IMG/VR virus record: IMGVR_UViG_3300031992_004563
Coordinates: 265,798 to 329,797 of that record
Reading direction: 5' to 3' (one strand)
DNA: 64,000 nucleotides
Source: a virus
Lineage: Duplodnaviria > Heunggongvirae > Uroviricota > Caudoviricetes
This document shows, piece by piece, positions 11,162-64,000 of the stretch; the stretch's first letter is position 1; every line of letters starts with the position of its first letter. A program made the position numbers and the translations under genes. The notes beneath the pieces are model-generated. The model was not told the DNA's origin. It was given only the letters and a program-made list of their open reading frames with translations, and did no database searches.

Positions 11162-11181
11162 AAATTATATAAACTTAATTT

Positions 11182-11769: not shown

Positions 11770-11777
11770 ATTATTGA

Positions 11778-13141: not shown

Positions 13142-13158
13142 AATTTTGTAATTTTTTG

Positions 13159-13232
13159 TACCTCGAGTGGGATTCTAACCCACAACTCCCATCTTAGAAG
13201 GATGGTACTCTATACAGTTGAGTTATCGAGGC
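13159..13232 (-). tRNA. tRNA-Arg (anticodon UCU, reads AGA)
   Basis: The minus strand reads GCCTCGA-TA-ACTC-AACTGTATA-GAGT-A-CCATC-CTTCTAA-GATGG-GAGTT-GTGGG-TTAGAAT-CCCAC-TCGAGGT-A. Acceptor, D, anticodon and T stems all pair, and loop positions 34-36 are TCT. Confidence 0.7.
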
Positions 13233-40311: not shown

Positions 40312-40698
40312 TTATTTTGATTTTTTAGTTCTTGTTTTCTTTGGTTTTTCTTCTATTTCACCTTTAGCGATTTTCTCAGCTTTTTCTTTTTCTTTAGCCT
40401 CACGTTTCAATCGGCGTTGTTCATCACCCCAGGCTTTTGCACGTTCAACGAGTTCTTTATGTTTTTGCTCAGCTTCTTCAGGGTGTTCACGTTCCCAATT
40501 AATTTGGTCCCAAACAAAACTTCCATAACCAAGTTTCCAACTATGATAATGAGGACACATTAAAAACCAATGGCTATTACCTTTATATTTTTCAATACAT
40601 GCACCTTTCATTATGCATGTTTTCTTACATACATCCTCTTGAAATTGAGGAACATCGCTAGCTTTATAAAAGTCTTTATTTGCCATATTATTCTTCAA
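40312..40698 (-). CDS. Hypothetical protein (Cys/His-rich N-terminus, lysine-rich tail)
   Basis: 128-aa ORF. Confidence 0.45.
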   Translation of the reverse strand: MKNNMANKDFYKASDVPQFQEDVCKKTCIMKGACIEKYKGNSHWFLMCPHYHSWKLGYGSFVWDQINWEREHPEEAEQKHKELVERAKAWGDEQRRLKREAKEKEKAEKIAKGEIEEKPKKTRTKKSK

Positions 40699-41560
40699 TA
40701 AGATTCATTTCTATGAGCATGCTATATAATTTTTTCAAATCACATGCATAGTATCCATAAGAACAATATCCACCATAATAATCAGATTCGCCTCGTTCCT
40801 CTACAGTTACAGTTTCACGATAAAGTTTCTTATATTGAAGCATTGAAATGTTAGGACATACTTCAGTAAGCAAATCATCAAATTCTTTAAATTCGCTTGG
40901 TTGGGCTTCAGCACTAATATTACCACTAGCACCAGTATAATCACCCCATGTCCCGCCAAGACACCATTCTTCACTTCTCATTTCATCTTGTTTCATCCAA
41001 GATTCACGTATTTTAAACAAAGATTCATACTTATTCATTTTATGTACCTCCATTTCTTTAATTACAAATTCAATTTCACTAAATTCTTTAGATAGACCAT
41101 CAATATCAGGTTTTTCAAATTCTGCATGCTTAATAGTAATATGTGCCTTACGATCTTGTTGACGAATGCTATCATTATATAAACATGTATCTCTATCTTC
41201 TTTAAAATATACAAATTGAATTTTAACATGTTCACTATCAAAAATATAATGTGTACATTCATTATAAATGGCTTTAACCAATTTATGTTGTGTTTCATTG
41301 GTTAAAAATAATCCATCTATAATCCAATGATTATAATTTGCATTATGATGTATAATTGAATAGCAAAAACTTGAGTCTCTTAAAACATTTGTAAAAGATC
41401 TTTTCTCACGTTTAAGATAATCTTTATCAAAATCAATGTAGCATGTATTTGAATTAAATGTAGATAAAAACTTTTCACCATTATTGGCACTTTGTGCATA
41501 ATGAGTTTTACCACTACCAGGCAATCCAATTAAAATTTCTACTAATACTTGATTTTTCAT
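40688..41560 (-). CDS. P-loop kinase, polynucleotide kinase-like (Walker A GLPGSGKTH)
   Basis: N-terminal ILIGLPGSGKTHYA resembles PNK/AAA_33-type kinases. Lies immediately downstream of the RNA ligase gene. Promoter motif at 41579-41627. Confidence 0.5.
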   Translation of the reverse strand: MKNQVLVEILIGLPGSGKTHYAQSANNGEKFLSTFNSNTCYIDFDKDYLKREKRSFTNVLRDSSFCYSIIHHNANYNHWIIDGLFLTNETQHKLVKAIYNECTHYIFDSEHVKIQFVYFKEDRDTCLYNDSIRQQDRKAHITIKHAEFEKPDIDGLSKEFSEIEFVIKEMEVHKMNKYESLFKIRESWMKQDEMRSEEWCLGGTWGDYTGASGNISAEAQPSEFKEFDDLLTEVCPNISMLQYKKLYRETVTVEERGESDYYGGYCSYGYYACDLKKLYSMLIEMNLIEE

Positions 41561-41661: not shown

Positions 41662-43335
41662 TCAATTTTCATCTGGATTTTCTTCACCATATCTTTCTTG
41701 CATTTCATAATCTGATGTAACACCTTTATCCATATCTTCAGCTTCCTTACCAAGGAATTTCAAACATTTAAGTTTGAATGCTTCTGCTACAGGGTCATCA
41801 TTAATTCTAAGAACGATACCTTCACGAGGAAGTTCATTTTTACACATTGGTTCATTTTCTTCCATTCCAAAGTTTTTATCCTTTTTCATTCTAGAAAGAA
41901 CATTTTCATTCCAATGATTTCTAAGATCCAAATCAGGATAAAGATCTTTCATTAAGCCATTATACAAAATTGTAATTGGTTTAATTTTTGAAGCATCATT
42001 AGTATTATTTTCTTTATCACGTTTTTGAAGTGCAGGAATAAGAGTATGCAATGTATAATCATGTACATCTTGAACATTAAATTCATATACATCCCCATTT
42101 TCAAGTACATGTTTAATACGGTAAATCATTAAATAATTATCACCTGTTTTACAACCATAGTCATAAACTTTTCCACCAAGTGATTGGATTCCCGATGTAG
42201 AATTTGTTACATATCCACAAATTTCTCCATAAAATGTCATTCCTTGAGGAATAAAATCTTTAAGGATTTTGTAATATGTTGCCCAAATATCTACTCCATA
42301 AAAACCTCCAGACTTGCCACCATATTTAAATCTAAACAATGATTTAAATTTATCCCAAAAAGTAATTTCTGGTTCATTTTGGTTTTTACGTTTCTTTTTC
42401 TTAAACATTGATTTCAATGTGCTTGTAATATGAAGCCACCATGCATAAATTATTTGGTAAATAATTGCAATCATATTTTGATTTTTAATTACACCACGAG
42501 AGCTATAAATTACATCATAGCCTTCAGTAGTAAATTGCAAAACTTTAGGCAAATATACAAAAGCTTTTTCATACAAACCACCATACTTAGGTTTATGAAC
42601 TTTTACATTACCAAAAATCGCTGATGAACCATGTTCCTTAACGGTAATTGATACTGAAGTTTCAGGTTTAATTCTATTCATTGAACGTTGAAGTTGTTCA
42701 GTATCATAATGAAATGCAAATTGTCCAGGAATCATACGATCATATTTTTTAATTTGCTTTTCATGACGGCCTTTTTTAACTCCACCATTTCGGCCTTTTA
42801 CTTCAGGAACATATGCTTTTACAAACAAACGTTCACCTACAGTATCAAAATCTTCACCAAGATGTGCAGACCAATCAAAATTTTCCAAGTCTGCTTCGTA
42901 TTCACCCATTTGGTATGGAGAAATAAGATAACCCATTGACATTACACCACGAAGTTTCTTCATACGAACACGACAGTTCTTACCAAAATAACCTTTATTA
43001 AGATTCAAATAATGTTGAATCTCTTCTTCAGATGCATTTTGTTTTCTCATTTTTTCCAAATGAGGACCTACATCTTGATAATTTGAATTAAGTGTGATAT
43101 CATCAAATTGATTAGTTGAAGATAGAAACAAACTATCAAGTTGACATTCATTGGCTACATAAATCATATAGCTTCCTGTTTTAACCAAATCTTTACGAAC
43201 TACGATATCTCTGCCTTCAACCATCACTGTGGCAAGAAAATCGGAATTTTCAATTGGTGTCAATTCACCAATTTGAACAACAGTTGCACAATATTCATGT
43301 GACATGTCTTTTGATTGTGATAATACATTTTCCAT
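41662..43335 (-). CDS. ATP-dependent RNA ligase-like protein (N-terminal OB-like domain as in DraRnl/NgrRnl-type ligases; motif I KEHGS; motif IV EGIVLR; motif V KLKCLKF)
   Basis: N-terminus …YCATVVQIGELTPIENSDFLATVMVEGRDIVVRKD… resembles the N-domain of Rnl5-type ligases. Nucleotidyltransferase motifs are present. Confidence 0.55.
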   Translation of the reverse strand: MENVLSQSKDMSHEYCATVVQIGELTPIENSDFLATVMVEGRDIVVRKDLVKTGSYMIYVANECQLDSLFLSSTNQFDDITLNSNYQDVGPHLEKMRKQNASEEEIQHYLNLNKGYFGKNCRVRMKKLRGVMSMGYLISPYQMGEYEADLENFDWSAHLGEDFDTVGERLFVKAYVPEVKGRNGGVKKGRHEKQIKKYDRMIPGQFAFHYDTEQLQRSMNRIKPETSVSITVKEHGSSAIFGNVKVHKPKYGGLYEKAFVYLPKVLQFTTEGYDVIYSSRGVIKNQNMIAIIYQIIYAWWLHITSTLKSMFKKKKRKNQNEPEITFWDKFKSLFRFKYGGKSGGFYGVDIWATYYKILKDFIPQGMTFYGEICGYVTNSTSGIQSLGGKVYDYGCKTGDNYLMIYRIKHVLENGDVYEFNVQDVHDYTLHTLIPALQKRDKENNTNDASKIKPITILYNGLMKDLYPDLDLRNHWNENVLSRMKKDKNFGMEENEPMCKNELPREGIVLRINDDPVAEAFKLKCLKFLGKEAEDMDKGVTSDYEMQERYGEENPDEN

Positions 43336-43691: not shown

Positions 43692-45071
43692 TTAAAATAA
43701 CTCTTCGCTTTTTGGCTTTTCTTTAGTCTTTGGCTTTGTTTCTTCTTCATCCTCAATAGGTGTATTATCCAATGCACATAATTCATTATAGTATTCATTT
43801 TCACCATCGTGGAAGCAGTCATCAACCATTTTTTGTGCAATAGAACGTGCATCACAATTTTTCTTAAATGCATCAAAAATCCTATTGCGTAACTCATCAT
43901 ACTTTTCTTTATTACTTGCAAGCTCATCCATTTGTGCAAGACATTCATCAAGATTTGATAAGTCCTTTTTAATGAATACACCAAGTCCTAATTCAAGTGC
44001 TGTTTTATTTAGACACTTTGTGTTTTCATCATACATACGACATGCATTACCTGCATTCCAATCTAACAATGGAATTGAACCCATTTGAATAATCTCAAAT
44101 ACTGAATATTCAAAATCATCTCCATAACATCCATCAGTTTTAAGATGGAAAAAGTCACATCCAAATGCAGACTTTGCAACGCATCTCATTCCTTCTTCAC
44201 GTTTATATGCATCAAATACATAACACCAACCTTTTTCACGTTTAGGGGTATCAAGCATTGGATCATCATATGCAATACCATTTTCTTCTCTCCACTTTTT
44301 ATCTGAAGCCATTATACAAGCCTTAGATGGAAGACGGTTTCCTTGCTCATCAAATGAATAAAGCAAGTCAGGAATTGTAGATACATTAATTGTACGTTTA
44401 ATACCACGCATTTCCAACTCATAATCATGTGCATAAAATTTATCACGACCACGAAGTAAACGAGTTGGGTCTTTAAATCCAGAATGACGACCAAGATAAG
44501 TTATTCGACGTAATTTCTCATCAAATGGAACCCATTGTTTCTTATCTTCATCTGAATAATTATGTGGAAGAATTAATTGAACAAAACGTTTTCTAAATTC
44601 TTCTTCACCACACGCTGCACAAATTTTTTGTGCTACCATTGCCTTTGGTGCAAATGTAATAATTTTATCAAATGCCAACCAAAATTCTGAATTATGCAAT
44701 AGTGGTCCATAATATGCAGCAAATCCCAATACATTATGATCATTACATACAATTGCTTTTCTTGTAGTAATTTTATTCATAACCAAATCCATCCAGAGAT
44801 TATGATATTTTTCATCTGCTTTTTTCTCCATAATGGAATTAATGATAACCAAATCAGCTTCATTAATATGATTAACTGTATTTTCAGAATAATCATATTC
44901 TACGGCGAATGGAATGCTTTGTGTGCCACCATCCATCTCAGCCTTTTCATGTGCTTTTACATAAATAACTTCAACTTCATGGCCAGCAAGCTTCAAGCCT
45001 TTATTTAATTCTATAACATATCGGGTTACACCAGAACCCTCAATGCGTGCCATCAATTGTACAATTTTCAT
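43692..45071 (-). CDS. Glycosyltransferase, GT4-like N-terminal domain
   Basis: N-terminus MKIVQLMARIEGSGVTRYVIELNKGLKLAGHEVEVIY is typical of GT-B/GT4 enzymes. Confidence 0.5.
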   Translation of the reverse strand: MKIVQLMARIEGSGVTRYVIELNKGLKLAGHEVEVIYVKAHEKAEMDGGTQSIPFAVEYDYSENTVNHINEADLVIINSIMEKKADEKYHNLWMDLVMNKITTRKAIVCNDHNVLGFAAYYGPLLHNSEFWLAFDKIITFAPKAMVAQKICAACGEEEFRKRFVQLILPHNYSDEDKKQWVPFDEKLRRITYLGRHSGFKDPTRLLRGRDKFYAHDYELEMRGIKRTINVSTIPDLLYSFDEQGNRLPSKACIMASDKKWREENGIAYDDPMLDTPKREKGWCYVFDAYKREEGMRCVAKSAFGCDFFHLKTDGCYGDDFEYSVFEIIQMGSIPLLDWNAGNACRMYDENTKCLNKTALELGLGVFIKKDLSNLDECLAQMDELASNKEKYDELRNRIFDAFKKNCDARSIAQKMVDDCFHDGENEYYNELCALDNTPIEDEEETKPKTKEKPKSEELF

Positions 45072-45074
45072 ATA

Positions 45075-46415
45075 TTAAAATAAACTTTGTTTTGTTGCTA
45101 TATTAAGTACTTCTTGTTTTGTATTATCTTGAAATGCTACATTAGAAGTATGTTCTCGATTATTATATTCCCAATTATTCAAAATGTTTACAACTTGAGA
45201 AACAATAAATTTCGCTGTGTTAACTGGAACATTTTGACCAATTTTTGCAAGATTTGTTTTATCTCCATATATAATAAAATCTTCTGGCATACCCATTAAT
45301 GAAAGATATTCCCTTATTGTGCAAAATCTCTTACCAGTATAATGAATCATATTAGGTATTGATCTAAATTGAACAGATGGAAAATAATCCTTAAATACCC
45401 ATGCATCTTCGCCATAATAATTCAAACCTTGTGAAGTTTTTTCAAAGATATGTTTAAAATACTTTTCAACCTTTGCCTTTTCTTCATCAGTGTATTTATC
45501 AGATTCTTTAACAAATTTCAAAAAATCTTCAAGTTTACCAGTTTTCATTATATATGTTATAATGTTTCTTTTATCTTTTATTTCATCTGCCCAATTTTCA
45601 CCATAATTTTTAACATTATAATCAATAGCTGCGTAATTATGAATAAATGATTCTACTGGTGTTTGTTGAGGAGCGTCCTTTGATATTGATTCAAAAAATT
45701 CTGGAATAAGAATAGAATCTTTTTCATAACCAAACAATGGTGGTTTTTGTTCTGTGTTTTTTCCTTGCCATTGAGTAAAAATAACAAATGTTCTTGGTCT
45801 GCGTTGGCAATTATGATGAAGAACTGTATCTGTTTTATAATAAAGAACAGAATATCCTGCATTCTTTGCAATATCCTCCAATGATGCACGAACATCATCG
45901 CCTCTGTCACCAACCAATGTAGGTGCATTTTCAAACACATATACTTTAGGTTTAATAACATTTAAAGTATAATATGTAATCCATTGCATATTACAATTTC
46001 TGGATTCTTTTGTTTCATTAGCAGCTTTAGTAACAACTGATAAACCTGAACATACAGGAACTGCAACAACTAAATCCATATCTGAAAAATCTGGCAATGG
46101 AACATCATCTTCAAGTCCTTTTCGTACTTTTAAATCAGTTGAATGAATGTCCATATCAAACATCTTTCTATTTGTTATTTGATAATATGGAACTTTATAT
46201 CCATCCTTTGTAGATTTAAATAACCATTCTCTTAAATTATATTCATTACCTGCACCTGTTATAATAGGATTATCTTTATCACCAGCTACAGTTATTGCAT
46301 CAAGCCCATCATACGATAAAATCCATTCGGCTTGATGGCCAATGGCTTTTAACGCTCCTATATACATTCCGCCTGTTAATGGTTGAATACATCCCCATTT
46401 AATTTCTTTTGACAT
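45075..46415 (-). CDS. DNA (cytosine-5)-methyltransferase family protein, divergent
   Basis: Motif I-like PLTGGMYIGA, motif IV-like AVPVCSGLS, motif VI YVFENAP, motif VIII CQRRPR, motif X IGQNVPVNTAKFI. Confidence 0.55.
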   Translation of the reverse strand: MSKEIKWGCIQPLTGGMYIGALKAIGHQAEWILSYDGLDAITVAGDKDNPIITGAGNEYNLREWLFKSTKDGYKVPYYQITNRKMFDMDIHSTDLKVRKGLEDDVPLPDFSDMDLVVAVPVCSGLSVVTKAANETKESRNCNMQWITYYTLNVIKPKVYVFENAPTLVGDRGDDVRASLEDIAKNAGYSVLYYKTDTVLHHNCQRRPRTFVIFTQWQGKNTEQKPPLFGYEKDSILIPEFFESISKDAPQQTPVESFIHNYAAIDYNVKNYGENWADEIKDKRNIITYIMKTGKLEDFLKFVKESDKYTDEEKAKVEKYFKHIFEKTSQGLNYYGEDAWVFKDYFPSVQFRSIPNMIHYTGKRFCTIREYLSLMGMPEDFIIYGDKTNLAKIGQNVPVNTAKFIVSQVVNILNNWEYNNREHTSNVAFQDNTKQEVLNIATKQSLF

Positions 46416-50346: not shown

Positions 50347-50598
50347 TTATCTATCTGCCCATGGGCCAGATTTTTCTTTAAATTTTACACATAAATCATT
50401 ATCATAACGATTATATGTTACATCAAAACCCGCTTCAGTTAACAATTGCTGTAATCCATCTTCATATGGGATTACAGTAAAAGAATTATTCATTAATCCT
50501 TGTTTAATTCTCGGTAATGCTTTTTCAAAGGCAATTTGTGCCTGCATTTGTTCTGCTATTGTCATCATATTATTCAAGTAATTTGCATTCTTCTTCAC
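50347..50598 (-). CDS. Small hypothetical protein
   Basis: 83-aa ORF. Confidence 0.35.
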   Translation of the reverse strand: MKKNANYLNNMMTIAEQMQAQIAFEKALPRIKQGLMNNSFTVIPYEDGLQQLLTEAGFDVTYNRYDNDLCVKFKEKSGPWADR

Positions 50599-51247
50599 TA
50601 TATAATGAATGGAGTTTTTCTAACCACCATTTAGTTTTTACTTTAACAGATGGACGTCTTTGACCTTTAAGTAAAGTACTGCGTTTAAATACCACACCTT
50701 CTTTGACTGTTGGGTATTTTGCATCTGCCTGTGTCCAATCATTTTCCTGTATATCTTTAATAATTTCAGCAGTTAGAGGGCCTTTATATATAAGTTCAGG
50801 TATTTCTATACCACAGCCATTAAATATTGTGTAATATTCTTCTGGTTCAATATATCCCTTTTTCTTAAGAAATACATCTGTAAGAGCTAATCTCATTTCA
50901 TCACCTTCAACATGCTTACCAGCAAATGAATTATCTCCATACCATTCAAACACAAATGTTAATTCATCTACACCATTAAAGACTTTTTTCTTTGCAGAAT
51001 TTTCTTTAATGAGTTTAGCCAAAATATCTTGATAATTTGAATTATAAAACCATTGAACAACTGGTCCAAACTGTTCACTGTTTTCATCTACAGTAACAGT
51101 ACGTGAACCACATGGGCCAAATGTTTTCTTGCGACAATTATATGCCACAACAAAATTTTGTCCATCTAATTTATTAAAACCCCAAACAATATCTCCTTTT
51201 AAAGAGCCATCATCTTGGATTCTCGGTATACTATCGTAATGTTTCAT
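50570..51247 (-). CDS. Minimal ATP-dependent ligase-family nucleotidyltransferase (motif I KLDG, III FVFEWYG, IV EGVVFK, V KVKTKWW); RNA ligase-like
   Basis: Covalent nucleotidyltransferase motifs occur in canonical order in a 225-aa protein. Confidence 0.5.
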   Translation of the reverse strand: MKHYDSIPRIQDDGSLKGDIVWGFNKLDGQNFVVAYNCRKKTFGPCGSRTVTVDENSEQFGPVVQWFYNSNYQDILAKLIKENSAKKKVFNGVDELTFVFEWYGDNSFAGKHVEGDEMRLALTDVFLKKKGYIEPEEYYTIFNGCGIEIPELIYKGPLTAEIIKDIQENDWTQADAKYPTVKEGVVFKRSTLLKGQRRPSVKVKTKWWLEKLHSLYSEEECKLLE

Positions 51248-51968: not shown

Positions 51969-52457
51969 TTATGCTAAAATATTTTTAAGGCGAAAATAAC
52001 TTTCATTAAAAAGATTATCATATGCATCATAATATGGCTTAAATAAATCCATCGTCCTAGCCCATCTAAGTGAATCTTTTTGACGCTCTTTCTTTTCATA
52101 TTCTTCATAAGACATCTCAGGATGAAGTTTATTCCATTCCTCGATAAATTTATCATGAGAATCTTTATAATATACATATGAATCTTTAGGCTCAAAATAT
52201 GGTTTAGATATAGATTGAACAAAATCTCTAAATTGAGCAGTTATTTTATATACATCATAAAATATACCATTTTTATTAACAAACTGCTCATAAATATCTC
52301 CAAGTGTTATAGATTCTCTAATAACATTTTTACGCTCAATACCCATATCGCCTGTATGTTCAAATGCCCAGGTATCAAGATAATTTCTTACTACAAAATC
52401 TTTACCAAGTTTTTCAATAAGAGCATTAAACTCTTTAATTTGTTTGTTGTACGTCAT
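51969..52457 (-). CDS. Hypothetical protein
   Basis: 162-aa ORF. Confidence 0.45.
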   Translation of the reverse strand: MTYNKQIKEFNALIEKLGKDFVVRNYLDTWAFEHTGDMGIERKNVIRESITLGDIYEQFVNKNGIFYDVYKITAQFRDFVQSISKPYFEPKDSYVYYKDSHDKFIEEWNKLHPEMSYEEYEKKERQKDSLRWARTMDLFKPYYDAYDNLFNESYFRLKNILA

Positions 52458-53004
52458 AATAGTATAAACTGTTTGTATTAAATTGTCCTACCCGATTAAT
52501 TGAACTAAATGTTCCTTCCCAATCTTGCAAAGGAATATTATGTTGAAACAAATCATTAATATGATTCATAAAATAGATTTCATATTCACAAATTTCATGA
52601 TCCAACATAATATCATTTATGCATTGAGTATTTAAATATTGATGTGCTTCTTCTAAATTAGAAATAAACATACCAGTAAAAAATCCATGAAGATGATGAG
52701 TTTGTGCAAATGCAGACGCCCAACACCAAACACCAATAATATTTTGAGCATGAATTAAATGTACATTATTTTCATGTATAATATATTGGCCAGAATCCAA
52801 ATTAGGATGAAGCAAACCATAAGATGTTCCATGACCACAAATAATTAATGTGTCATCTTCAGTTATTAATGCTTCTTCTACTGCATCTTCATAATTCTCA
52901 TCATCATGACAAATTACAATTAACCGGTCAATATGCAATCCTTGCCACATTGCCTGTAGCAAGCCAGTATCCCGATCACCACTATTTGCATATATTACTG
53001 TCAT
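52435..53004 (-). CDS. Hypothetical protein
   Basis: 189-aa ORF. Confidence 0.45.
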   Translation of the reverse strand: MTVIYANSGDRDTGLLQAMWQGLHIDRLIVICHDDENYEDAVEEALITEDDTLIICGHGTSYGLLHPNLDSGQYIIHENNVHLIHAQNIIGVWCWASAFAQTHHLHGFFTGMFISNLEEAHQYLNTQCINDIMLDHEICEYEIYFMNHINDLFQHNIPLQDWEGTFSSINRVGQFNTNSLYYYDVQQTN

Positions 53005-53010: not shown

Positions 53011-53427
53011 TTATTTTATTAAATATTTCTTATATGTTTCAAAAATAGATAAAATGTTATCTCTTCCAGGAGGATTGCTTGAATGGCATTCATAATATGG
53101 AAATTCAAATCCATAATCTTCTATAATATCACATATTTCTACTGCAACATTATATCCTGTTTTTTCATCATCACTTATGTATGAGCCTAAATCATGGTCA
53201 AGACAAAAACAATTAACATATTCATTTGGATCTTCTTTTATCCATTTATTGCTCCAATCTACCCATGCATCATATGATTTACACCATACGATTTCAACAT
53301 CATGCCCATCAACCAAAGATAAAAATTCCTTTGGAACAACTTTATTCCAATAAGTAAATAAACTCATTGGATCACGTTGATCATCAATCCAAATTACTCT
53401 GTACTTTGTCTGCTTCATTATTGTCAA
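53011..53427 (-). CDS. Hypothetical protein
   Basis: 138-aa ORF. Confidence 0.45.
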   Translation of the reverse strand: MTIMKQTKYRVIWIDDQRDPMSLFTYWNKVVPKEFLSLVDGHDVEIVWCKSYDAWVDWSNKWIKEDPNEYVNCFCLDHDLGSYISDDEKTGYNVAVEICDIIEDYGFEFPYYECHSSNPPGRDNILSIFETYKKYLIK

Positions 53428-54046: not shown

Positions 54047-54072
54047 ATAATTAACATTTTTAAATTTTATGA

Positions 54073-54114
54073 TGCAAAATTAATATATTTCTATTAAATT
54101 AAAAAATAGAAGAT
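54073..54114 (-). promoter_or_regulatory. Conserved promoter motif copy
   Basis: GCAAAATTAATA…AAAAAATAGAAG upstream of the ATG at 54046. Confidence 0.5.
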
Positions 54115-54189
54115 TCCAATTATTATATAAAAACATAGAAGGTTGTTTCACAACAACCCTCTATTTAAAATCTTCTAATATTAACAAAT

Positions 54190-55359
54190 TTAATATGATT
54201 CAATATTAAGATCATGGAAACATTGTGCAATTTCCGTTTGATCACCCATTACTTTGCCAGCATCGTCACTTACTTTAATACAATTAACCATTGGGCTATT
54301 TGCATTCATTCGACACATTGTAAGTTTCATTACAATATTCTGACTTGGCGTATTGGTATCACATGTAAGATTAGTTCCAATACCGGCAGAACATTTAATT
54401 TTGCCTTTGCAATAATCAGCAATTGCTTTAAATTTTGGGAATGTTAATGCATTAGAGAATACAATTGTTTTGTCCTTTGGATCAATTCCCTTAGATTTAT
54501 AAGCTTCAATTGCCATTTGGGTGAATTCATACTCATCACCTGAGTCATGACGAACACCATCAAACAATTTTGCATGCTTCAAACTAAATGTATCGAAGAA
54601 TGCTTTACTTCCATAAGTATCTGTCAATGCAATACCAAGAGCACCATCATAAACAGATACCCAATCCTCATAGGCTTTATAGTTTGCATTGCGATAACCA
54701 AACTGTGCGCCATGGAACATTACCCACTCATGAGCAACAGTGCCAATAGGCTTCATATCATACTTCATTGCAAGGTGTACATTGGATGTTCCTACACAAT
54801 AAAGTGCATTTTCTTTAAGACGTTTTACAACGGCATCCTGAACGGCATAACTGAAACGACGACGAGTACCAAACTCACTAAATACCAATCCATGCTCATT
54901 GGACAATGCAATTTTCTTATCGAGACGAGAAAGTACATCAGCCATATTAACGATATGAACACTATTAGAAATTTCAGATACAATTGCAAGACATGCAATC
55001 TCCCAAAGTGTTAAACTATAAAGTTTATCAGCTGCAGTAATATGCAAAATTTGACTATCATCAAGCCATGCAGTTACTTTAGTTGAATCAAATCTAAATC
55101 CACGAAGCCATTCCCAATAGAATTGAGGAATATATGTAATATGATTTTTACACCAATAAAACTCTTCGTCAGTAAGACTTAAATTTTCAAGTTCTTTAAT
55201 ACTTTTGATAATTCTATCCAATTCACCACGAGTTCGTTTAACTCGATTTCGGTCAAAAAACTCAAATACACCTTCAGCTTCAGGATAAAGCTTCATGTAT
55301 GCATAACTCATACTAAGTTTGTACAAGTCAGTGTCCAAAATACTTTTAATTACTCCCAT
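54190..55359 (-). CDS. pncB: Nicotinate phosphoribosyltransferase
   Basis: Aligns with E. coli PncB at ILDTDLYKLSM, FSEFGTRRRFSYAVQDAVVKRL, IGTVAHEW, GIALTDTYGS and VRHDSGDEYEF. Confidence 0.85.
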   Translation of the reverse strand: MGVIKSILDTDLYKLSMSYAYMKLYPEAEGVFEFFDRNRVKRTRGELDRIIKSIKELENLSLTDEEFYWCKNHITYIPQFYWEWLRGFRFDSTKVTAWLDDSQILHITAADKLYSLTLWEIACLAIVSEISNSVHIVNMADVLSRLDKKIALSNEHGLVFSEFGTRRRFSYAVQDAVVKRLKENALYCVGTSNVHLAMKYDMKPIGTVAHEWVMFHGAQFGYRNANYKAYEDWVSVYDGALGIALTDTYGSKAFFDTFSLKHAKLFDGVRHDSGDEYEFTQMAIEAYKSKGIDPKDKTIVFSNALTFPKFKAIADYCKGKIKCSAGIGTNLTCDTNTPSQNIVMKLTMCRMNANSPMVNCIKVSDDAGKVMGDQTEIAQCFHDLNIESY

Positions 55360-55362
55360 ATC

Positions 55363-56835
55363 TTATTTTAAATTAAAATGTTGTTCAATATATTCATATA
55401 ATGCTTCTGGAGTGTTTTCAATAATGTTATCCAAAAGAGCATCTTTCATCATTTTTTTAATTTCACCAATTTGTTTACCTGGTTCAAGATGGTATTTCTC
55501 CATAAGATCATTGCCAGTTACGCATGGTTGGAACATACGAACATAATCCTTATGAGCAATATCTTCAATACGTTCCATTAATTCATTATATCTAAATTGG
55601 AAGTTTTGTTTCTTGTTTTCGTTCTTTGTCGTAATATCAGAATTAGCAAGAATCATCAATTCCTTGATATAACCATTTGCATCATTAACCAAACGACGAA
55701 CACCTGCATCGGTTACTTCATCTCCACAAATTGCTTGAGGACGCATATGAAGTTGAACCATAAGAGCAGTAAATTTCATATTTTCATCCTGAGGCATTTT
55801 TAACCGTTTAAATATAGATTCCACCATCTTTGCACCTACATATTCATGATTGTCAAAAGAATAACCATTGTGGGCATCATAATGACGTGTAGGTATTTTA
55901 CCTATGTCATGTAATAGTGCGGCAATACGAAGATATACATTCTCAGTTTGTAAACAAACACTTCGTAAAACATCTAATGTATGCCAATAGATATTTTTAT
56001 GTTTATCTGTATATCGAGGACCACACTTACCAGTAGTATCAAGTGCATCCACTTCAGGCAAAAACTTTTTAAGTAATCCAGTATTCTTTAAAATCTCAAT
56101 GCCATCAGCTGCATAATCTGAACTCATAATTTTTAAGAATTCTGTCATAATACGTTCAGCTGAAATAATATCCAAACGATCCAAATTTTTTACAATTGCA
56201 TTATATGTAGTTTGTTCAATGCCAAAACCAAGTTTACATGCAAAACGAACTGCACGTAACATACGCAATGGGTCATCAGAAAAAGTAATATCTGGATTAG
56301 TAGGAGTTTTAATAGTACCAGTTTTCAAATCTTCAATACCACCAAATGGATCAACCAATTCTCCAAAATGATCACTATTAAGGCAAATAGCCATTGCATT
56401 AATTGTAAAGTCACGACGAAGTTGGTCATCTTGAAGAGTGCCTTCCTCAACAATAGGTTTACGACTACCACGCTCATAAGATTCCTTACGTGCTCCGACA
56501 TATTCTACTTCAAAATCACCAAATCGAACCTGTGCAGTTCCAAAGTTTTCAAAAATAGACAATTTAATATTTTTGAAATTAGTTTGTGTTTTAAGATATT
56601 GCTCAAAATGACGAGCCATTACTTGCCCTTTTCCAACTACAACGACATCAATATCGTCATTAGGTCTGCCAAGAAGCAAATCACGAACATAACCACCAAC
56701 AACATAACAAGGATATTGAAGGTGATCAGCCACATATTTGATATTGCATAAAACTCCAAAAACTTCTTTATTTCGTTTTTGAATTTCTTTTAAAATACTT
56801 TCTTTGTCTAATTGTTTTAACATATATTTTTTCAA
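55363..56835 (-). CDS. cca: tRNA nucleotidyltransferase (CCA-adding enzyme, class II head domain plus HD domain)
   Basis: GGYVRDLLLGRPNDDIDVVVVG, RRDFTINAM and HD motif HTLDV…LLHDIGK. Confidence 0.8.
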   Translation of the reverse strand: MKKYMLKQLDKESILKEIQKRNKEVFGVLCNIKYVADHLQYPCYVVGGYVRDLLLGRPNDDIDVVVVGKGQVMARHFEQYLKTQTNFKNIKLSIFENFGTAQVRFGDFEVEYVGARKESYERGSRKPIVEEGTLQDDQLRRDFTINAMAICLNSDHFGELVDPFGGIEDLKTGTIKTPTNPDITFSDDPLRMLRAVRFACKLGFGIEQTTYNAIVKNLDRLDIISAERIMTEFLKIMSSDYAADGIEILKNTGLLKKFLPEVDALDTTGKCGPRYTDKHKNIYWHTLDVLRSVCLQTENVYLRIAALLHDIGKIPTRHYDAHNGYSFDNHEYVGAKMVESIFKRLKMPQDENMKFTALMVQLHMRPQAICGDEVTDAGVRRLVNDANGYIKELMILANSDITTKNENKKQNFQFRYNELMERIEDIAHKDYVRMFQPCVTGNDLMEKYHLEPGKQIGEIKKMMKDALLDNIIENTPEALYEYIEQHFNLK

Positions 56836-56843
56836 TTTGATGT

Positions 56844-56884
56844 TGCAAAATTAATATATTTCTATTAAATTAAAAAATAGAAGC
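56844..56884 (-). promoter_or_regulatory. Conserved promoter motif copy upstream of cca
   Basis: TTGCAAAATTAATA…AAAAAATAGAAG. The -7 box lies about 12 nt from the ATG at 56835. Confidence 0.5.
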
Positions 56885-56928
56885 TAATTATTTTAGCTCC
56901 TATTCATTATTTTGTTTCACATTATGTA

Positions 56929-57576
56929 TTAGATTACATTAATTTGACAAGATCTCATTACTTCAAGTGCAGCCTCATGTTTTTCAGGAGTAACACCTGC
57001 ACAGCATTTACTATCTACTGTAATCTCCGCAAAATCATATGTAAATGCTTTAAGAATAAGTGCATTAGATACTACACAAATATCTGTACAGAATCCACAC
57101 ATTTCAATCTCCATAGGAATAGGCTCATTTTGATGGTCTTTTTCCAAATTCATAATACACTCAGGCAGAGACACATGATTCTCGAAAAATTCTTTCCATT
57201 GGCCAACAAGTTTCTCCTTAATGCGTCCACCCTCTACAGAGCCAAAAGTAAACTTAGGAATAAACTTGATTTCCAATCCTTGTTTTGCTTTTTCCATTGC
57301 AGCATCTTCAATTTGACTAGTTACTCGCCAACCACATTGAATTTCATATCCTTGATCACATATACAATGCTCTACTGGAAGCTTCTTGCCCTCACGGGTT
57401 TCAAGATAATTATTAAAATGGGTATCCATTGTCAAGAAAATAGCATCACCATCAAATGTCAAAATCTTGTCTACAATATTAGGCACTGCTTTCTGCGCCT
57501 CTGTATTTTCTAATGTTCCATAGATGAAGTCATTCTGAGCATCAACTACAACCAAAACTTTAATCTTGTCTTTCAT
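56929..57576 (-). CDS. pncA: Isochorismatase-family hydrolase, probable nicotinamidase
   Basis: VLVVVDAQNDF and GFCTDICVVSNA match the PncA/isochorismatase fold. First gene of an operon with cca and pncB. Confidence 0.65.
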   Translation of the reverse strand: MKDKIKVLVVVDAQNDFIYGTLENTEAQKAVPNIVDKILTFDGDAIFLTMDTHFNNYLETREGKKLPVEHCICDQGYEIQCGWRVTSQIEDAAMEKAKQGLEIKFIPKFTFGSVEGGRIKEKLVGQWKEFFENHVSLPECIMNLEKDHQNEPIPMEIEMCGFCTDICVVSNALILKAFTYDFAEITVDSKCCAGVTPEKHEAALEVMRSCQINVI

Positions 57577-57578
57577 AA

Positions 57579-58391
57579 TTAAATTAATGTTTTTGCTTTT
57601 TCTAACAAATCTTTAAAACAATTCATAAACTCCTCTGCCATTTCTTGTGTCGGGAATGATAGCATTGTTATCCAACCATTATAGCATTTGTTAACTGTGA
57701 ATCCTTCAGACACTGTAGAAACAATACAATATTTAGGATTTTTATGTGATGTTTCTTTACTCCAATCTGGACGCCAATTGTCAATCCATGCTCTACGCAA
57801 TCTAATTAATCGACCATATGCAATAAATGCATCTGCATCATCCTCGTCAAAGCCATGCGCAAAATGAGGATAATAATGCATATGTTTTTCAAATGGATAA
57901 AAATTATCACAGTAATCTTCCCATGTTTGAGGAACTTTAGGTTTAGGATTTAATTCCTCTTCATCAAAAACTTGAAGAGCAAATTCTTTTGCCTGACCAC
58001 CAGCTTTATACATTTTTTGAGCTTCCTTAAGAGTAAGCCTAATGCATCTTTCTACTATATCAGTGTCACCATATCGATTTTTTACTACATTATCGTCAAC
58101 TATAATTTTAGATGCAATGCGTTTAAGTTGTTCTGCTGACTTAGAATCAATATCTTTAAATGGACTTTGATCAAATTCCAAAATCACTTTTGGCCAATGT
58201 CCATTGCGTTTTGTATTTGTGTTTTTCTCACATTTTTGAATTTCATATGAGTAATAAAATCCTATAGCGCTGCCAACATCAACTCCATACACACGACGCT
58301 CACCATTTGAACATGAACTATCAATTACTCCAATTTTTCCAGTTTTATTAACTTTAACCCTGTCGCCAATTTGAAATTTTTTTTGTGCCAT
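57579..58391 (-). CDS. Hypothetical protein
   Basis: 270-aa ORF with a promoter motif copy at 58411-58459. Confidence 0.5.
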   Translation of the reverse strand: MAQKKFQIGDRVKVNKTGKIGVIDSSCSNGERRVYGVDVGSAIGFYYSYEIQKCEKNTNTKRNGHWPKVILEFDQSPFKDIDSKSAEQLKRIASKIIVDDNVVKNRYGDTDIVERCIRLTLKEAQKMYKAGGQAKEFALQVFDEEELNPKPKVPQTWEDYCDNFYPFEKHMHYYPHFAHGFDEDDADAFIAYGRLIRLRRAWIDNWRPDWSKETSHKNPKYCIVSTVSEGFTVNKCYNGWITMLSFPTQEMAEEFMNCFKDLLEKAKTLI

Positions 58392-58410
58392 AATATATTC
58401 ATTTTAAAAT

Positions 58411-58459
58411 TTAACGATACAAAATTATTCTATTTCTATTAAAATAAAAAATAGAAGTT
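58411..58459 (-). promoter_or_regulatory. Conserved promoter motif copy
   Basis: TTAACGATACAAAATTA…AAAAAATAGAAGTT lies 29 nt upstream of the ATG at 58391. Confidence 0.5.
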
Positions 58460-58499
58460 AATTATTATAACCTCTATTTAATATTTGTTTTAATTTTAA

Positions 58500-59788: not shown

Positions 59789-60217
59789 TTATAATAGGCT
59801 TAAATGACCTGTTAGTTTATTTAATGATTCACTTTCCCATGGGCCAATTCCTAAACATGTATTTGTTGGAATACCATGAAATTCAGTTAAACCTGCATCT
59901 GTTATTAATGCATGAGGAATATCTAGTTCTTCACATTTTTTATTTAATTCTAAAAGTTGTTCTTCATTATCAATACCTACAACAATTTTAGTAAATATTC
60001 CATTTAACCAATTATCCAATATACAATCATCACCAAATTCAACTTCATATCTTGTTGTAAATTGATTGTTAGGATATTCACATTTTATTTTACTAAAAAA
60101 TTTTAAAAGTGAACCCAAACTTGCGTGACAACATTGTGCAGCAAATTTGCCTTTTCTAATTCCATGTTCACCTTTTAAAAGGTCTTTTCTAAATACTATT
60201 ACTTGTTTTGTTTCCAT
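59789..60217 (-). CDS. Peptidyl-tRNA hydrolase, PTH2 family
   Basis: VIVFRKDLLKGEHGIRKGKFAAQCCHAS, …ITDAGLTEF…CLGIGP and C-terminal TGHLSLL align with PTH2. Confidence 0.75.
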   Translation of the reverse strand: METKQVIVFRKDLLKGEHGIRKGKFAAQCCHASLGSLLKFFSKIKCEYPNNQFTTRYEVEFGDDCILDNWLNGIFTKIVVGIDNEEQLLELNKKCEELDIPHALITDAGLTEFHGIPTNTCLGIGPWESESLNKLTGHLSLL

Positions 60218-62349: not shown

Positions 62350-62380
62350 AAATAGAGGACCGATTTCTCGATCCTCTATA
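62350..62380 (-). terminator. Hairpin terminator downstream of the capsid gene (AGAGGACCGATTTCTCGATCCTCT)
   Basis: Near-perfect inverted repeat after the 62406 stop. Confidence 0.45.
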
Positions 62381-62405: not shown

Positions 62406-64000
62406 TCAAAGACCACGGCAATCAACGAAGAATGTAAGGTATTGAGTTTCTGGGAAGAAACCTGCGTCTACCAATGCATAACGTGATTTAATCATGAGTT
62501 TTGGAGCCATTGTACCTTCAGCGATGATACGAACAACTTCGGCCATGATGTATGGGCAGAAATGAACACCTGGTTCGTCTTTTGCACCTTTACGTCCAAC
62601 TAATACACGAGTATCAGAAGCTTTCATCAATGGGTCTACGTAAACTGTTAAACCACATACTGTACCGATTGGGTAAAGTTGACCTGCAGTTTGTTTAACT
62701 GTATTTTCAATTGGTGAGAAGCTATAATGTGCATCAGATTGTAACAATGTAGCAACACGGATGTTAGTTACAACGAATGTAGCAGCACCGTAACGACCAC
62801 GTTGTTGGATCCAGTTAGAAGCAGCTAAGATATTTGTGAAGATTCTCTTGATGAGAGTGTCACGGTTTTCGAAGTTAGCGCCTTCAATAACACCCATAGG
62901 CATTAATGGAAGTTCAACCATTCTTTGAGAAGCGTAACGTTGTTCAGCATCAATATATTCACCTTCAGGAATAGCAAATGCGCGTACTTCAGGATCAGCT
63001 GTTTTGTCGAATTTTTGGAAAGTCATATTTAAGCAAGCTTCAAGACCTTCAACTTCAACAAGTTTAGCGTGGTTCTTCCAACCAAGAGCAAATAAACGAG
63101 ATGTGATGTGACGGTTGATAGTTTGTGATAATTCATTAACACCAGCGTTTTCAACGATCTTTAATACATCGATACCCCATTGTTTTTGTAAGTCAGAAAC
63201 TTGTTCTTGAGTTACTGCACATGCAACTTGGATTGTACCAACTGCAATGTTCTTTGTGAAGAGTTGTAATGAGATTTGACGAGCAGGAGTTAATTCACCT
63301 GTAGCGCGGCTCATTGGTTCATAAAGAACTGTACCATCTTGGTATGTACCAGCCCAAGCATCTTTATCTACTTCACCAGCACCAGTAAAACCAAGAAGTG
63401 AATCTTCTAACATAGAGATTAATTTAGGAGCTTTAACTGTTAAGTTTACATCACCTTCTAATTCTACGTCACCATTAGCGAATGTTTCGCCAAGAGATTG
63501 GTCACCATTAACAACTTTGAACATTGGGTCACCATCAATACGACTCCAACCAATAAATTCAACTGTAAGGTGTTCGTCTTTTTCAACTAAAACTGTACCA
63601 GCTTTTAAACCAGCTTCTTCAAGTTCATGTTTAACAATAACTGCTGGTTTTGCATCAGAACCTTCAGCAAGTACAAGAGCAGCTTTAAATGCGTGAGGAA
63701 GACCATATGCTTCAAATGCTCTATTTGCAACAGTATTAGCTTTTGGTGTACGAGCACTATGAATGTATGCAGGATTTGCATGATCAGCATCAAATGCAGG
63801 AGTTGCACCATATGGTTGTTTGCTACCACTGTATACATAATCCATATATGGAAGAACACCACTAGGACCTGCAAGAGGAGTAGTATTTACAAGTTCAAAA
63901 CCAATAGTTTTAGCAGCAACTTTCATTGCTAATGGAAGAAGAGCTGGGAATTTATCACCAGAACCAAGGATTTGGTCATCAGCTTGTGCTGAACCAGACA
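62406..64000 (-). CDS. Major capsid protein, T4 gp23 family (5-prime partial; the ORF continues beyond the window edge)
   Basis: C-terminal GVHFCPYIM…KSRYAL matches T4 gp23 GIYYAPYV…KTRYGI, and upstream DKFPALLPLA matches KKFPALAAS. The frame stays open beyond 63926 to position 64000. GC content and codon bias are noticeably higher than in surrounding genes, and there is no in-frame TAG. Confidence 0.75.
   Translation of the reverse strand, partial: SGSAQADDQILGSGDKFPALLPLAMKVAAKTIGFELVNTTPLAGPSGVLPYMDYVYSGSKQPYGATPAFDADHANPAYIHSARTPKANTVANRAFEAYGLPHAFKAALVLAEGSDAKPAVIVKHELEEAGLKAGTVLVEKDEHLTVEFIGWSRIDGDPMFKVVNGDQSLGETFANGDVELEGDVNLTVKAPKLISMLEDSLLGFTGAGEVDKDAWAGTYQDGTVLYEPMSRATGELTPARQISLQLFTKNIAVGTIQVACAVTQEQVSDLQKQWGIDVLKIVENAGVNELSQTINRHITSRLFALGWKNHAKLVEVEGLEACLNMTFQKFDKTADPEVRAFAIPEGEYIDAEQRYASQRMVELPLMPMGVIEGANFENRDTLIKRIFTNILAASNWIQQRGRYGAATFVVTNIRVATLLQSDAHYSFSPIENTVKQTAGQLYPIGTVCGLTVYVDPLMKASDTRVLVGRKGAKDEPGVHFCPYIMAEVVRIIAEGTMAPKLMIKSRYALVDAGFFPETQYLTFFVDCRGL

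What the first reader, a model, noticed from the sequence alone, without database searches (positions are those of the whole stretch)
54190..57576. Phage-encoded NAD salvage pair (PncA nicotinamidase plus PncB NAPRTase) in one operon with a CCA-adding enzyme
The minus-strand operon pncA (56929-57576), cca (55363-56835), pncB (54190-55359) carries the first two Preiss-Handler steps, nicotinamide to nicotinate to NaMN. Phage NAD-reconstitution pathways are known to counter NAD-depleting defences such as Thoeris, DSR/SIR2 and CBASS-NADase. A PncA-PncB route would recycle the nicotinamide released by NADases. Having a tRNA 3-prime-end repair enzyme in the same transcription unit suggests a combined counter-defence cassette.
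Basis: partly seen in the sequence, partly recalled or inferred. Interest (0 to 1): 0.7.

Follow-up and report, generated by a model that had tools for sequence, protein, structure and literature searches.

The report
Phage nicotinamidase–NAPRTase NAD salvage genes
A large T4-like phage carries intact-looking genes for the two enzymes that turn nicotinamide into the NAD precursor NaMN, one of them co-transcribed with a tRNA-end repair enzyme; it is a real example of a phage NAD-rebuilding kit of a type already noted by annotation, and its anti-defence role is still untested.

Summary
The three ORFs exist at exactly the stated coordinates. PncB passes the curated NAPRTase equivalog cut-offs and keeps the phosphohistidine motif (H210). 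The isochorismatase-family protein has the Asp12-Lys108-Cys167 triad and the nicotinamidase-specific metal site (D51/H53/H70), invariant in 87 relatives. Its best sequence and fold matches are nicotinamidases. The middle gene is a class II tRNA nucleotidyltransferase with an HD domain; CCA versus A- or CC-adding specificity is unresolved.

The genes are not one operon. A strong terminator-like hairpin plus a conserved promoter/operator-like element separate pncA from cca. cca and pncB, 3 nt apart, share a unit, and this holds in relatives.

The window has no NadD or NadE, but a close relative's 204-kb genome encodes NadE about 90 kb from its pncA.

Across 36 viral lineages, this PncA clade sits near NadE (24), Adps-like/Namat-like genes (22/19) or PncB (7). 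It sits near CCA only in this lineage (1).

An NAD-salvage role is well supported. A counter-defence role is plausible by association but untested. The "combined cassette" with cca is lineage-specific co-regulation. Phage Preiss-Handler genes were already noted by annotation in gut jumbo phages, so this is a new member of a known kind.

The parts
58396..58466 (-). Promoter/operator-like intergenic element upstream of o57579 (start of the o57579-pncA unit)
   Evidence: One of 5 copies of a ~70-nt repeat. Core is CTTCTATTTTTTA..TAATAG..TAATTTTG, about 25-35 nt before the ATG.
57579..58391 (-). o57579, 270 aa, unknown function; stop codon lies 2 nt before the pncA start
   Evidence: No Pfam/NCBIfam/PHROG hit. 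Only 30 homologues, all in this phage lineage. Always directly upstream of pncA in relatives. AF2 pLDDT 71; only a weak Tudor/KOW-like N-terminal barrel.
56929..57576 (-). PncA-like nicotinamidase, 215 aa
   Evidence: Isochorismatase domain. D12/K108/C167 and D51/H53/H70 invariant in 87 sequences. Profile hits in the PDB are nicotinamidases. AF2 pLDDT 87.4; top Foldseek hits are 5ZN8, 1ILW and 3O93.
56875..56905 (-). Terminator-like hairpin between pncA and cca
   Evidence: 13-bp stem followed by a T-run. -14.8 kcal/mol, z -5.27, 0 of 200 shuffles fold as well.
56822..56892 (-). Promoter/operator-like element upstream of cca
   Evidence: Repeat family D1. Exact 26-nt match to the copy downstream of pncB. 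Conserved in relatives upstream of the cca unit.
55363..56835 (-). Class II tRNA nucleotidyltransferase with C-terminal HD domain ('cca'); probable true start ATG at 56823
   Evidence: Pfam PolyA_pol, PolyA_pol_RNAbd, HD and tRNA_NucTran2_2. TIGR02692 scores 345 bits, below its 438.8 cut-off. Motifs GGYVRD47, DIDVV61, RRD140, DDPLR187, HD309. Nearest PDB entries are A-adding, CCA-adding and CC-adding enzymes.
54190..55359 (-). PncB nicotinate phosphoribosyltransferase, 389 aa; start is 3 nt after the cca stop
   Evidence: NF003704 416.5 bits (cut-off 379) and TIGR01514 374.9 bits (cut-off 269.55). PDB 2IM5 E 1.8e-96; GTVAHEW motif with H210. 85% identical in L001/L002.
54135..54164 (-). Terminator-like hairpin after pncB
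   Evidence: 13-bp stem. -17.7 kcal/mol, z -5.65.
54051..54121 (-). Promoter/operator-like element upstream of o53384 (next unit: o53384, cREC, o52435 ... RNA ligase)
   Evidence: Conserved in L001, L002 and L004.
53011..53427 (-). cREC-domain protein (context: RNA-repair / ADPr>p-processing domain)
   Evidence: Pfam cREC_REC 54.5 bits. [quoted passage not shown] A paralogue sits directly upstream of NadE in the relative L092.
50570..51247 (-). RNA ligase (context: RNA-repair set in the unit downstream of pncB)
   Evidence: Pfam RNA_ligase 37.7 bits; PHROG 968 RNA ligase.

Best explanation
The locus is the entry branch of a phage-encoded deamidating NAD salvage route in a large T4-like, probably jumbo, phage. 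PncA hydrolyses nicotinamide to nicotinate. PncB then uses PRPP, with ATP coupled through phospho-His210, to make nicotinate mononucleotide (NaMN). NaMN is finished to NAD by NadD and NadE, which are not in the window. NadE is phage-encoded elsewhere in a close relative's genome, and NadD is presumably supplied by the host. The genes lie in two adjacent transcription units: o57579-pncA, then terminator and promoter, then cca-pncB. These units carry the same promoter/operator-like element as the neighbouring RNA-repair units (PNK-like gene; cREC ... RNA ligase), so NAD salvage and tRNA/RNA repair are probably switched on together. The likely benefit is to keep or rebuild the NAD pool during infection from nicotinamide. 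That nicotinamide would be released by host NADase defences and by NAD-consuming reactions. Shown: gene identities, catalytic residues, transcription signals, conserved neighbourhoods. Inferred: enzyme activities, pathway flux, timing, and the counter-defence benefit.
For: PncB is above the equivalog cut-offs and has the His motif. PncA-like has the triad plus metal site invariant in 87 sequences, and nicotinamidases are its best sequence and fold matches. Of 36 dereplicated viral lineages carrying this PncA clade, 29 have another NAD-pathway gene within 10 kb: NadE 24, PRPS/Adps-like 22, Nampt/Namat-like 19, PncB 7, NadD-like 3. Complete PncA-PncB-NadD-NadE cassettes exist, e.g. L084. NadE acts only on the deamidated intermediate (established pathway knowledge). 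The partner in Phass-1 matches the solved Namat structures at E 3e-105, and NARP1 is an experimentally validated counter-defence (10.1101/2024.02.11.579819). The close relative's contig (L002 = L092) has NadE about 90 kb from pncA. The order pncA ... cca ... pncB, and the transcription-unit layout, are conserved in L001, L002 and L004. Terminators and the shared promoter-like element.
Against: There is no biochemical or genetic test. No NadD, NadE, Nampt, NMNAT, KptA or sirtuin was found in the 64-kb window. PncA-like reaches no NCBIfam nicotinamidase cut-off. It also has a roughly 20-25-residue longer Lys-to-Cys segment than canonical enzymes, modelled with lower confidence. The four-step route costs more ATP than Nampt routes (PMC9316036). 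The counter-defence role rests on analogy and neighbourhood, not on data for this pathway. Terminator and promoter calls come from sequence only.
Confidence: 0.6

Rival explanations
1. General auxiliary metabolic genes. PncA/PncB simply raise NAD supply for phage replication and phage NAD-using enzymes in gut or rumen hosts that depend on niacin salvage, with no specific link to NADase defences.
For: This is how PMC11662467 interprets Preiss-Handler genes in gut jumbo phages. PncB occurs in many large phages, including cultured Atu_ph07 and Phosso. No defence or anti-defence gene was recognised next to the locus.
Against: The same PncA clade is most often fused into cassettes with Namat and Adps-like genes, which are known counter-defence enzymes. 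A nicotinamidase specifically recycles the product of NAD cleavage and does not import new precursor.
Confidence: 0.25
2. Metabolically coupled RNA repair and NAD recycling. NAD-dependent removal of 2'-phosphates during tRNA repair (KptA/Tpt1 or sirtuin type) releases nicotinamide, and PncA/PncB recycle it. On this reading the cca-pncB co-transcription reflects one repair process.
For: PMC9503650 documents that one wing of phage RNA repair consumes NAD and that cREC occurs only in such contexts. cREC, two RNA ligases, a PNK-like gene and cca surround the locus. In L006, Tpt1, PNKP, a CPD domain, NadD-like and NadE all lie near PncA. RNA-repair genes lie near PncA in 13 of 36 lineages. cREC is adjacent to NadE in L092.
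Against: No KptA, sirtuin or other NAD-consuming enzyme was detected in the window. The cREC neighbour o52435 could not be assigned. CCA addition itself uses CTP and ATP, not NAD. CCA is near PncA in only 1 of 36 lineages.
Confidence: 0.12
3. The isochorismatase-family protein is not a nicotinamidase but hydrolyses another amide or ester, and its position near pncB is coincidental.
For: Only 56 bits to the generic Pfam domain and no NCBIfam equivalog hit. Relatives score weakly to biuret amidohydrolase as well as to PncA. Other family members (triuret hydrolase, CSHase, NicF) appear lower in the fold list.
Against: The D-x-H...H metal site, which by my own knowledge is typical of nicotinamidases and absent from CSHase- and isochorismatase-type members, is invariant. 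12 of 13 significant PDB profile hits are nicotinamidases. There is strong and repeated linkage to NAD genes.
Confidence: 0.05

Closest known systems
Bacterial PncA-PncB nicotinamide salvage feeding the Preiss-Handler pathway (PncA, PncB, NadD, NadE)
   Same: Same two enzyme families, same catalytic residues, same predicted chemistry.
   Different: Encoded by a phage. PncA belongs to a divergent viral/metagenomic clade with a longer Lys-Cys segment (all 120 best hits come from metagenome sources (ENA, Logan, JGI), none from NCBI or UniRef). NadD and NadE are not adjacent. pncB is co-transcribed with a tRNA nucleotidyltransferase.
'NAD-jumbo phage' Preiss-Handler gene clusters (pncB-nadD-nadE, e.g. 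Kuafu_71; PMC11662467)
   Same: Large gut-associated phages carrying deamidated-route NAD genes; phage pncA is mentioned.
   Different: That report is KEGG-level annotation only, without active-site, structural or transcription-unit analysis. Here pncA and pncB are separated from NadE by about 90 kb in the relative, and are interleaved with cca.
NARP1 (Adps + Namat), phage NAD reconstitution pathway 1
   Same: Recycles the nicotinamide released by NADases. The window's PncA clade is usually adjacent to Namat and Adps-like genes in other phages.
   Different: The window has neither Adps nor Namat. Its product is NaMN, not NAD, and it needs NadD and NadE.
NARP2 / KVP40 NadV-NatV (Nampt + NMNAT) and NARP3 (PnuC + NadR; PMC13464706)
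   Same: Phage-encoded NAD salvage intended to restore the NAD pool.
   Different: Those are amidated routes through NMN or nicotinamide riboside. None of their genes is in the window.
Phage tRNA repair and maintenance sets (T4 Pnk/Rnl1-type repair; phage tRNA nucleotidyltransferases; E. coli multifunctional CCA/HD enzyme)
   Same: Class II nucleotidyltransferase head plus HD domain, surrounded by RNA ligases, a PNK-like gene, cREC, PTH2, a tRNA and a tmRNA.
   Different: Below the equivalog cut-offs. Specificity is unresolved. It is transcriptionally fused to pncB in this lineage.

Membership tests
Nicotinamidase (PncA; isochorismatase-like cysteine hydrolase) | Isochorismatase-like alpha/beta fold | tested here: met
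   Pfam PF00857 at 56.4 bits against a cut-off of 27. AF2 pLDDT 87.4. Foldseek top hits are 5ZN8, 1ILW and 3O93, TM (target-normalised) 0.75-0.80.
Nicotinamidase (PncA) | Asp-Lys-Cys catalytic triad | tested here: met
   D12, K108 and C167 align to D10 and C133 of 1IM5 and to the conserved Lys of 5ZN8. They are invariant in 87 sequences.
Nicotinamidase (PncA) | Metal-binding D-x-H...H site, which distinguishes nicotinamidases from other family members (own knowledge) | tested here: met
   D51, H53 and H70 align to D52, H54 and H71 of P. horikoshii PncA. Invariant in 87 sequences.
Nicotinamidase (PncA) | Score above a curated equivalog cut-off (e.g. NF008623) | tested here: not met
   The window protein has no NCBIfam hit. 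Relatives score 26-30 bits against a cut-off of 174. It is a divergent clade.
Nicotinamidase (PncA) | Hydrolysis of nicotinamide to nicotinate | not testable with these tools
   Needs an enzyme assay.
Nicotinate phosphoribosyltransferase (PncB) | Curated equivalog/subfamily score, with both the N-terminal and catalytic domains | tested here: met
   TIGR01514 374.9 against 269.55; NF003704 416.5 against 379; PF17767 + PF04095.
Nicotinate phosphoribosyltransferase (PncB) | Phosphohistidine in the conserved GT-x-A-H-E-W motif (own knowledge: His219 in Salmonella PncB) | tested here: met
   GTVAHEW at 206-212, His210, aligned to the same motif in 2IM5 and 1YIR.
Class II CCA-adding enzyme | Head-domain motifs (GGxVRD, DxD, RRD, [ED]DxxR) plus body domains | tested here: met
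   GGYVRD47, DIDVV61, RRD140, DDPLR187; Pfam head + RNA-binding + tRNA_NucTran2_2.
Class II CCA-adding enzyme | Full CCA specificity, as opposed to A-adding, CC-adding or poly(A) polymerase | tested here: inconclusive
   Below all equivalog cut-offs (best is TIGR02692, 345 against 438.8). The nearest PDB relatives include the A. aeolicus A-adding enzyme, T. maritima CCA and CC-adding enzymes at similar scores.
Single operon pncA-cca-pncB | Co-directional genes with no internal terminator or promoter | tested here: not met
   Hairpin plus U-run and a promoter-like element lie in the 93-nt pncA-cca spacer. The feature is met only for cca-pncB (3-nt gap) and o57579-pncA (2-nt gap). RNA data are lacking.
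Complete deamidating nicotinamide-to-NAD pathway encoded by the phage | NadD and NadE also present | tested here: not met
   Neither is present in the 64-kb window. NadE is present in the relative's genome. NadD was not found for this lineage. The rest of this phage's genome is unseen.
NARP1 / NARP2 / NARP3 | Adps + Namat; Nampt + NMNAT; PnuC + NadR | tested here: not met
   None of these families was detected among 73 window ORFs scanned against Pfam.
Anti-defence function against NAD-depleting systems | Restores NAD and phage plating in hosts with Thoeris, DSR or SIR2-HerA | not testable with these tools
   Needs infection experiments.

The most novel reading that the evidence does not exclude
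Phages possess a distinct, widespread deamidating class of NAD reconstitution built around this viral PncA clade. It comes in at least two forms. One is PncA-PncB-(NadD)-NadE, of which the window's lineage is a dispersed version. The other is PncA-Adps-like-Namat-like-(Macro)-NadE. In the second form Namat-like enzymes may condense ADPR-PP with nicotinate to give NaAD directly, which NadE then amidates. Such routes would act as counter-defence, possibly working where amidated intermediates or nicotinamide itself are targeted. They would be co-regulated with RNA repair, because both answer abortive-infection effectors.
Probability: 0.3. Interest if true: 0.75.

Novelty: new member of a known kind. 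Interest (0 to 1): 0.5.

Why it matters
Phage NAD reconstitution is an active front in phage-defence biology, and all three validated pathways (NARP1-3) use amidated chemistry. This locus and its relatives show that a nicotinamidase-based, deamidating route is common in large gut and environmental phages: at least 488 IMG/VR contigs carry this PncA clade. The route often sits directly beside the validated NARP1 genes and NadE. That gives concrete, testable candidates: this pncA/pncB pair, compact four-gene cassettes such as L084, and the PncA-Adps-Namat-NadE cassette. These could be used to ask whether a fourth type of NAD rebuilding exists, and why phages would pay for the longer route. For the window itself the result is mostly a careful confirmation plus a correction of the operon structure.

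Tried and rejected
(1) One three-gene operon: rejected, because a terminator and a promoter-like element lie between pncA and cca.

(2) The PncA-like protein as a non-nicotinamidase hydrolase: disfavoured.

(3) Host or origin from PncB. The genome-contig scan returned a single 37%-identical Clostridia MAG and was uninformative. PncB clusters at 55-60% identity lie on roughly 185-190-kb contigs that look like phages, not bacteria.

(4) o57579, pncA's co-transcribed partner. It has only 30 lineage-restricted homologues, a moderate AF2 model, and only non-significant Tudor/KOW-like matches. Function unknown.

(5) o52435, next to cREC, as a candidate NAD-consuming repair enzyme. It has 676 relatives with invariant GHG...C...E, but no PDB or Pfam match, so it was not assignable.

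(6) Namat in the window's lineage: the 204-kb relative's contig was not among the best 80 of 290 loci, which is inconclusive.

(7) Supplementary tables of PMC11662467 are not held, so counts of phage pncA could not be checked.

(8) No riboswitch or other Rfam family lies near the locus.

(9) DNA-level similarity to GenBank phages is negligible, at most 10% coverage.
Full report
**What is there**

The window is from a phage. It has a T4-type Gp23 major capsid protein (62406-63926), a DNA glucosyltransferase-like gene, a C5 DNA methylase, RNA ligases, one tRNA-Arg and a tmRNA, at about 29% G+C. From about 28 kb to 64 kb almost all genes are on the minus strand. Relatives share 79% identity in the capsid protein. 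They lie on contigs of 204 and 233 kb, and homologues of lineage-specific genes lie on contigs of up to about 491 kb. This is therefore a large, probably jumbo, phage lineage.

The three ORFs of the finding are exactly where stated.

**PncB**

The 389-aa product passes NCBI's curated models: NF003704 at 416.5 bits (cut-off 379) and TIGR01514 at 374.9 bits (cut-off 269.55). It has both Pfam NAPRTase domains. Its closest solved relative is the Porphyromonas gingivalis NAPRTase 2IM5 (E 1.8e-96). The conserved GT-x-A-H-E-W motif is intact, with His210. From my own knowledge, this motif carries the autophosphorylated histidine, His219 in Salmonella PncB. PncB is the most conserved of the three genes in relatives, at 85% identity.

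**PncA-like protein**

Pfam gives only the generic isochorismatase domain (56 bits), and no NCBIfam model is hit, so this assignment needed testing.

- *Sequence.* The best PDB sequence matches are nicotinamidases. With a 37-sequence profile, 12 of the 13 significant PDB hits are nicotinamidases or pyrazinamidases: P. horikoshii, B. subtilis, S. aureus, Drosophila, S. pneumoniae, S. mutans, yeast Pnc1, M. tuberculosis and A. baumannii. The only other hit is a weak CSHase-related one.
- *Catalytic residues.* The alignments place D12, D51, H53, H70 and C167 on D10, D52, H54, H71 and C133 of 1IM5, and K108 on the conserved lysine of B. subtilis PncA. By my knowledge of that structure, these are the catalytic Asp and Cys, the three zinc ligands and the catalytic Lys. 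All six residues are invariant in 87 sequences from the window and viral loci.
- *Structure.* An AlphaFold model (pLDDT 87.4, pTM 0.88) has nicotinamidases as its top Foldseek matches.
- *Divergence.* The Lys-to-Cys segment is longer than in canonical enzymes and is modelled less confidently.

**The middle gene**

It is a class II tRNA nucleotidyltransferase with an HD domain. It has the motifs GGYVRD, DxD, RRD and DDPLR, and HD at residue 309. It stays below every equivalog cut-off. Its nearest solved relatives are A-adding, CCA-adding and CC-adding enzymes with similar scores. 'CCA-adding' is therefore plausible but unproven. Its real start is probably the ATG at 56823.

**Transcription layout**

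The three genes are not one operon.

- *Gaps.* The o57579 stop lies 2 nt before pncA, and the cca stop 3 nt before pncB. pncA and cca are 93 nt apart.
- *Terminators.* The pncA-cca spacer contains a 13-bp-stem hairpin (-14.8 kcal/mol, z -5.3) followed by a U-run. A similar hairpin (-17.7 kcal/mol, z -5.7) follows pncB.
- *Promoter-like element.* Right after each hairpin comes a conserved element, CTTCTATTTTTTA-TTAATAG-TAATTTTG, about 25-35 nt before the next start codon. It occurs five times in the window, against 0 in shuffles. All copies are on the minus strand, upstream of the PNK-like gene, o48054, o53384, cca and o57579. Its 3' end fits the Bacteroidota -7 box TAnnTTTG (own knowledge). 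It also contains a dyad, TTCTAT-N11-ATAGAA.
- *Conservation.* The element is conserved in L001, L002 and L004, all copies on the coding strand and most 24-27 nt upstream of a gene start. There too, pncA lies in an upstream unit while cca and pncB share one unit, with small inserted ORFs.

The layout is therefore [o57579-pncA] | [cca-pncB] | [o53384-cREC-...-RNA ligase], probably all in one regulatory class. This rests on sequence signals only.

**Is the pathway complete?**

Seventy-three window ORFs were scanned against Pfam. None was NadD, NadE, Nampt, NMNAT, PnuC, KptA, sirtuin or Nudix. However, the 204-kb contig of the close relative (L002 = L092) encodes a clear NadE (165 bits) about 90 kb from its pncA, directly downstream of a cREC gene. 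The lineage thus encodes at least three of the four steps. NadD was not found and is presumably supplied by the host.

**Wider context of the PncA clade**

At least 488 IMG/VR contigs encode relatives. In the best 80 loci (72 of them at least 15 kb, 36 lineages at 70% identity), genes within 10 kb were counted per lineage.

| Gene within 10 kb | Lineages (of 36) |
|---|---|
| NadE | 24 |
| PRPS-like | 22 |
| Nampt-like | 19 |
| Macro | 10 |
| PncB | 7 |
| Thg1 | 7 |
| RtcB | 4 |
| NadD-like | 3 |
| CCA | 1 (this lineage) |

In all, 29 of 36 lineages have some NAD-pathway gene nearby and 13 of 36 have an RNA-repair gene nearby.

- *Complete cassettes.* L084 is a compact PncA-PncB-NadD-NadE cassette.
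- *Link to NARP1.* The Nampt-like partner in phage Phass-1 matches the solved Namat structures 9W5X/9W5W at E 3e-105, against 1e-43 for classical Nampt. The commonest setting of this PncA clade is therefore next to the validated NARP1 counter-defence genes plus NadE.
- *Caveats.* The sample is the 80 loci most similar to the query, many from one dataset. Detection used tblastn with a few reference proteins.

**Interpretation**

The NAD-salvage reading (nicotinamide -> nicotinate -> NaMN, finished by NadD and NadE) is well supported. The counter-defence reading is plausible by association with NARP1 and by analogy with NARP1-3 (10.1101/2024.02.11.579819; PMC13464706), but it is untested.

The 'combined cassette' idea needs rewording. 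The cca-pncB coupling is real and conserved in this lineage, but it is not general. What recurs more widely is NAD genes lying among RNA-repair genes. A published rationale exists for that: KptA/sirtuin-type repair consumes NAD, and cREC processes the ADPr>p by-product (PMC9503650). No NAD-consuming repair enzyme was found in the window, and the cREC neighbour o52435 could not be assigned.

**Novelty**

- Phage NAD salvage has been known since KVP40.
- The two Aravind-lab surveys describe only NadV/NadM/NadR.
- The NARP papers held here do not mention nicotinamidase, nicotinate or NadE.
- PMC11662467 already reports, by KEGG annotation, Preiss-Handler clusters (pncB-nadD-nadE) and phage pncA in gut jumbo phages.
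- pncB is annotated in cultured jumbo phages.

The window is therefore a new, well-verified member of an already noted but uncharacterised kind. The more novel lead is the widespread PncA/NadE-flanked NARP1-like cassette seen in passing.

Noticed in passing
L003 (Phass-1) 8001-12439; also L025, L027, L037 and about 19-22 of 36 lineages: Recurrent co-directional cassette PncA-like | PRPS/Adps-like | Namat-like | (Macro) | NadE, sometimes with RtcB inserted. The Namat-like protein matches the solved Namat structures 9W5X/9W5W at E 3e-105. A nicotinamidase and an NaAD-specific amidating enzyme flanking NARP1 genes suggests a deamidated NARP1 (nicotinate + ADPR-PP -> NaAD -> NAD). This is not mentioned in the NARP papers held.
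   Followed up: partly
L084 9992-13116 (also L069, L086): Compact four-gene phage cassette PncA-like, PncB (486 bits), NadD-family (106 bits, just under the 112 cut-off) and NadE (176 bits). This is a complete nicotinamide-to-NAD deamidating pathway on a 127-kb viral contig.
   Followed up: partly
L092 2498-3750 (same contig as L002): In the window's close relative, NadE sits directly downstream of a cREC-domain gene, about 90 kb from pncA. In the window a cREC gene (53011-53427) lies just downstream of pncB. The NAD/cREC proximity therefore recurs.
   Followed up: partly
L006 2344-10600: On a 389-kb contig the PncA-like gene lies with a tRNA-ligase CPD domain, a 441-aa NadD-like protein, NadE, PNKP and Tpt1/KptA. 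KptA is an NAD-consuming RNA 2'-phosphotransferase that releases nicotinamide.
   Followed up: partly
window 3651-4052 (-): Phage-encoded tmRNA (Rfam RF00023, 81 bits; ARAGORN tag peptide GEDEYAMAA). Together with PTH2 (59789-60217) and a tRNA-Arg(TCT) at 13158-13232, it points to a translation-rescue toolkit.
   Followed up: partly
window 62352-62379, 56875-56905, 54135-54164 (-): The terminator-like hairpins share a conserved stem base (ATAGAGG...CCTCTAT / AATAGGAG...CTTCTATT). The CTTCTAT half is also the invariant 5' part of the promoter-like element, so terminator and promoter signals overlap in this phage.
   Followed up: partly
window 52435-53004 (-): o52435, packed against cREC, belongs to an uncharacterised family with 676 representatives and invariant G57-H58-G59, C94 and E119 (a His/Cys dyad-like signature). 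It has no Pfam or PDB match; one relative is fused to a GNAT acetyltransferase.
   Followed up: partly
window 31013-32965 (-); L002 10687-11511; L010 8007-8837: SPFH/Band_7 proteins. A 650-aa one is in the window, and in relatives a 274-aa Band_7 gene is inserted directly after pncA. Another lies next to the Nampt-like gene in L010.
   Followed up: no
L004 18953-20047: A relative on a 233-kb contig encodes a class I peptide chain release factor (PCRF + RF-1 domains) a few genes downstream of pncB.
   Followed up: no
window 40688-41560 and 41662-43335 (-): A PNK-like P-loop kinase (AAA_33) and a 557-aa protein with the PHA02142 OB-fold domain (RNA-ligase-like). The kinase is preceded by the same promoter-like element as cca and pncA's unit.
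   Followed up: no
window 43692-46415 (-): A DNA alpha-glucosyltransferase-like gene and a C5 cytosine methylase lie side by side. A thymidylate-synthase-family hit occurs among the smaller ORFs (member not resolved). Together these suggest modified DNA bases.
   Followed up: no
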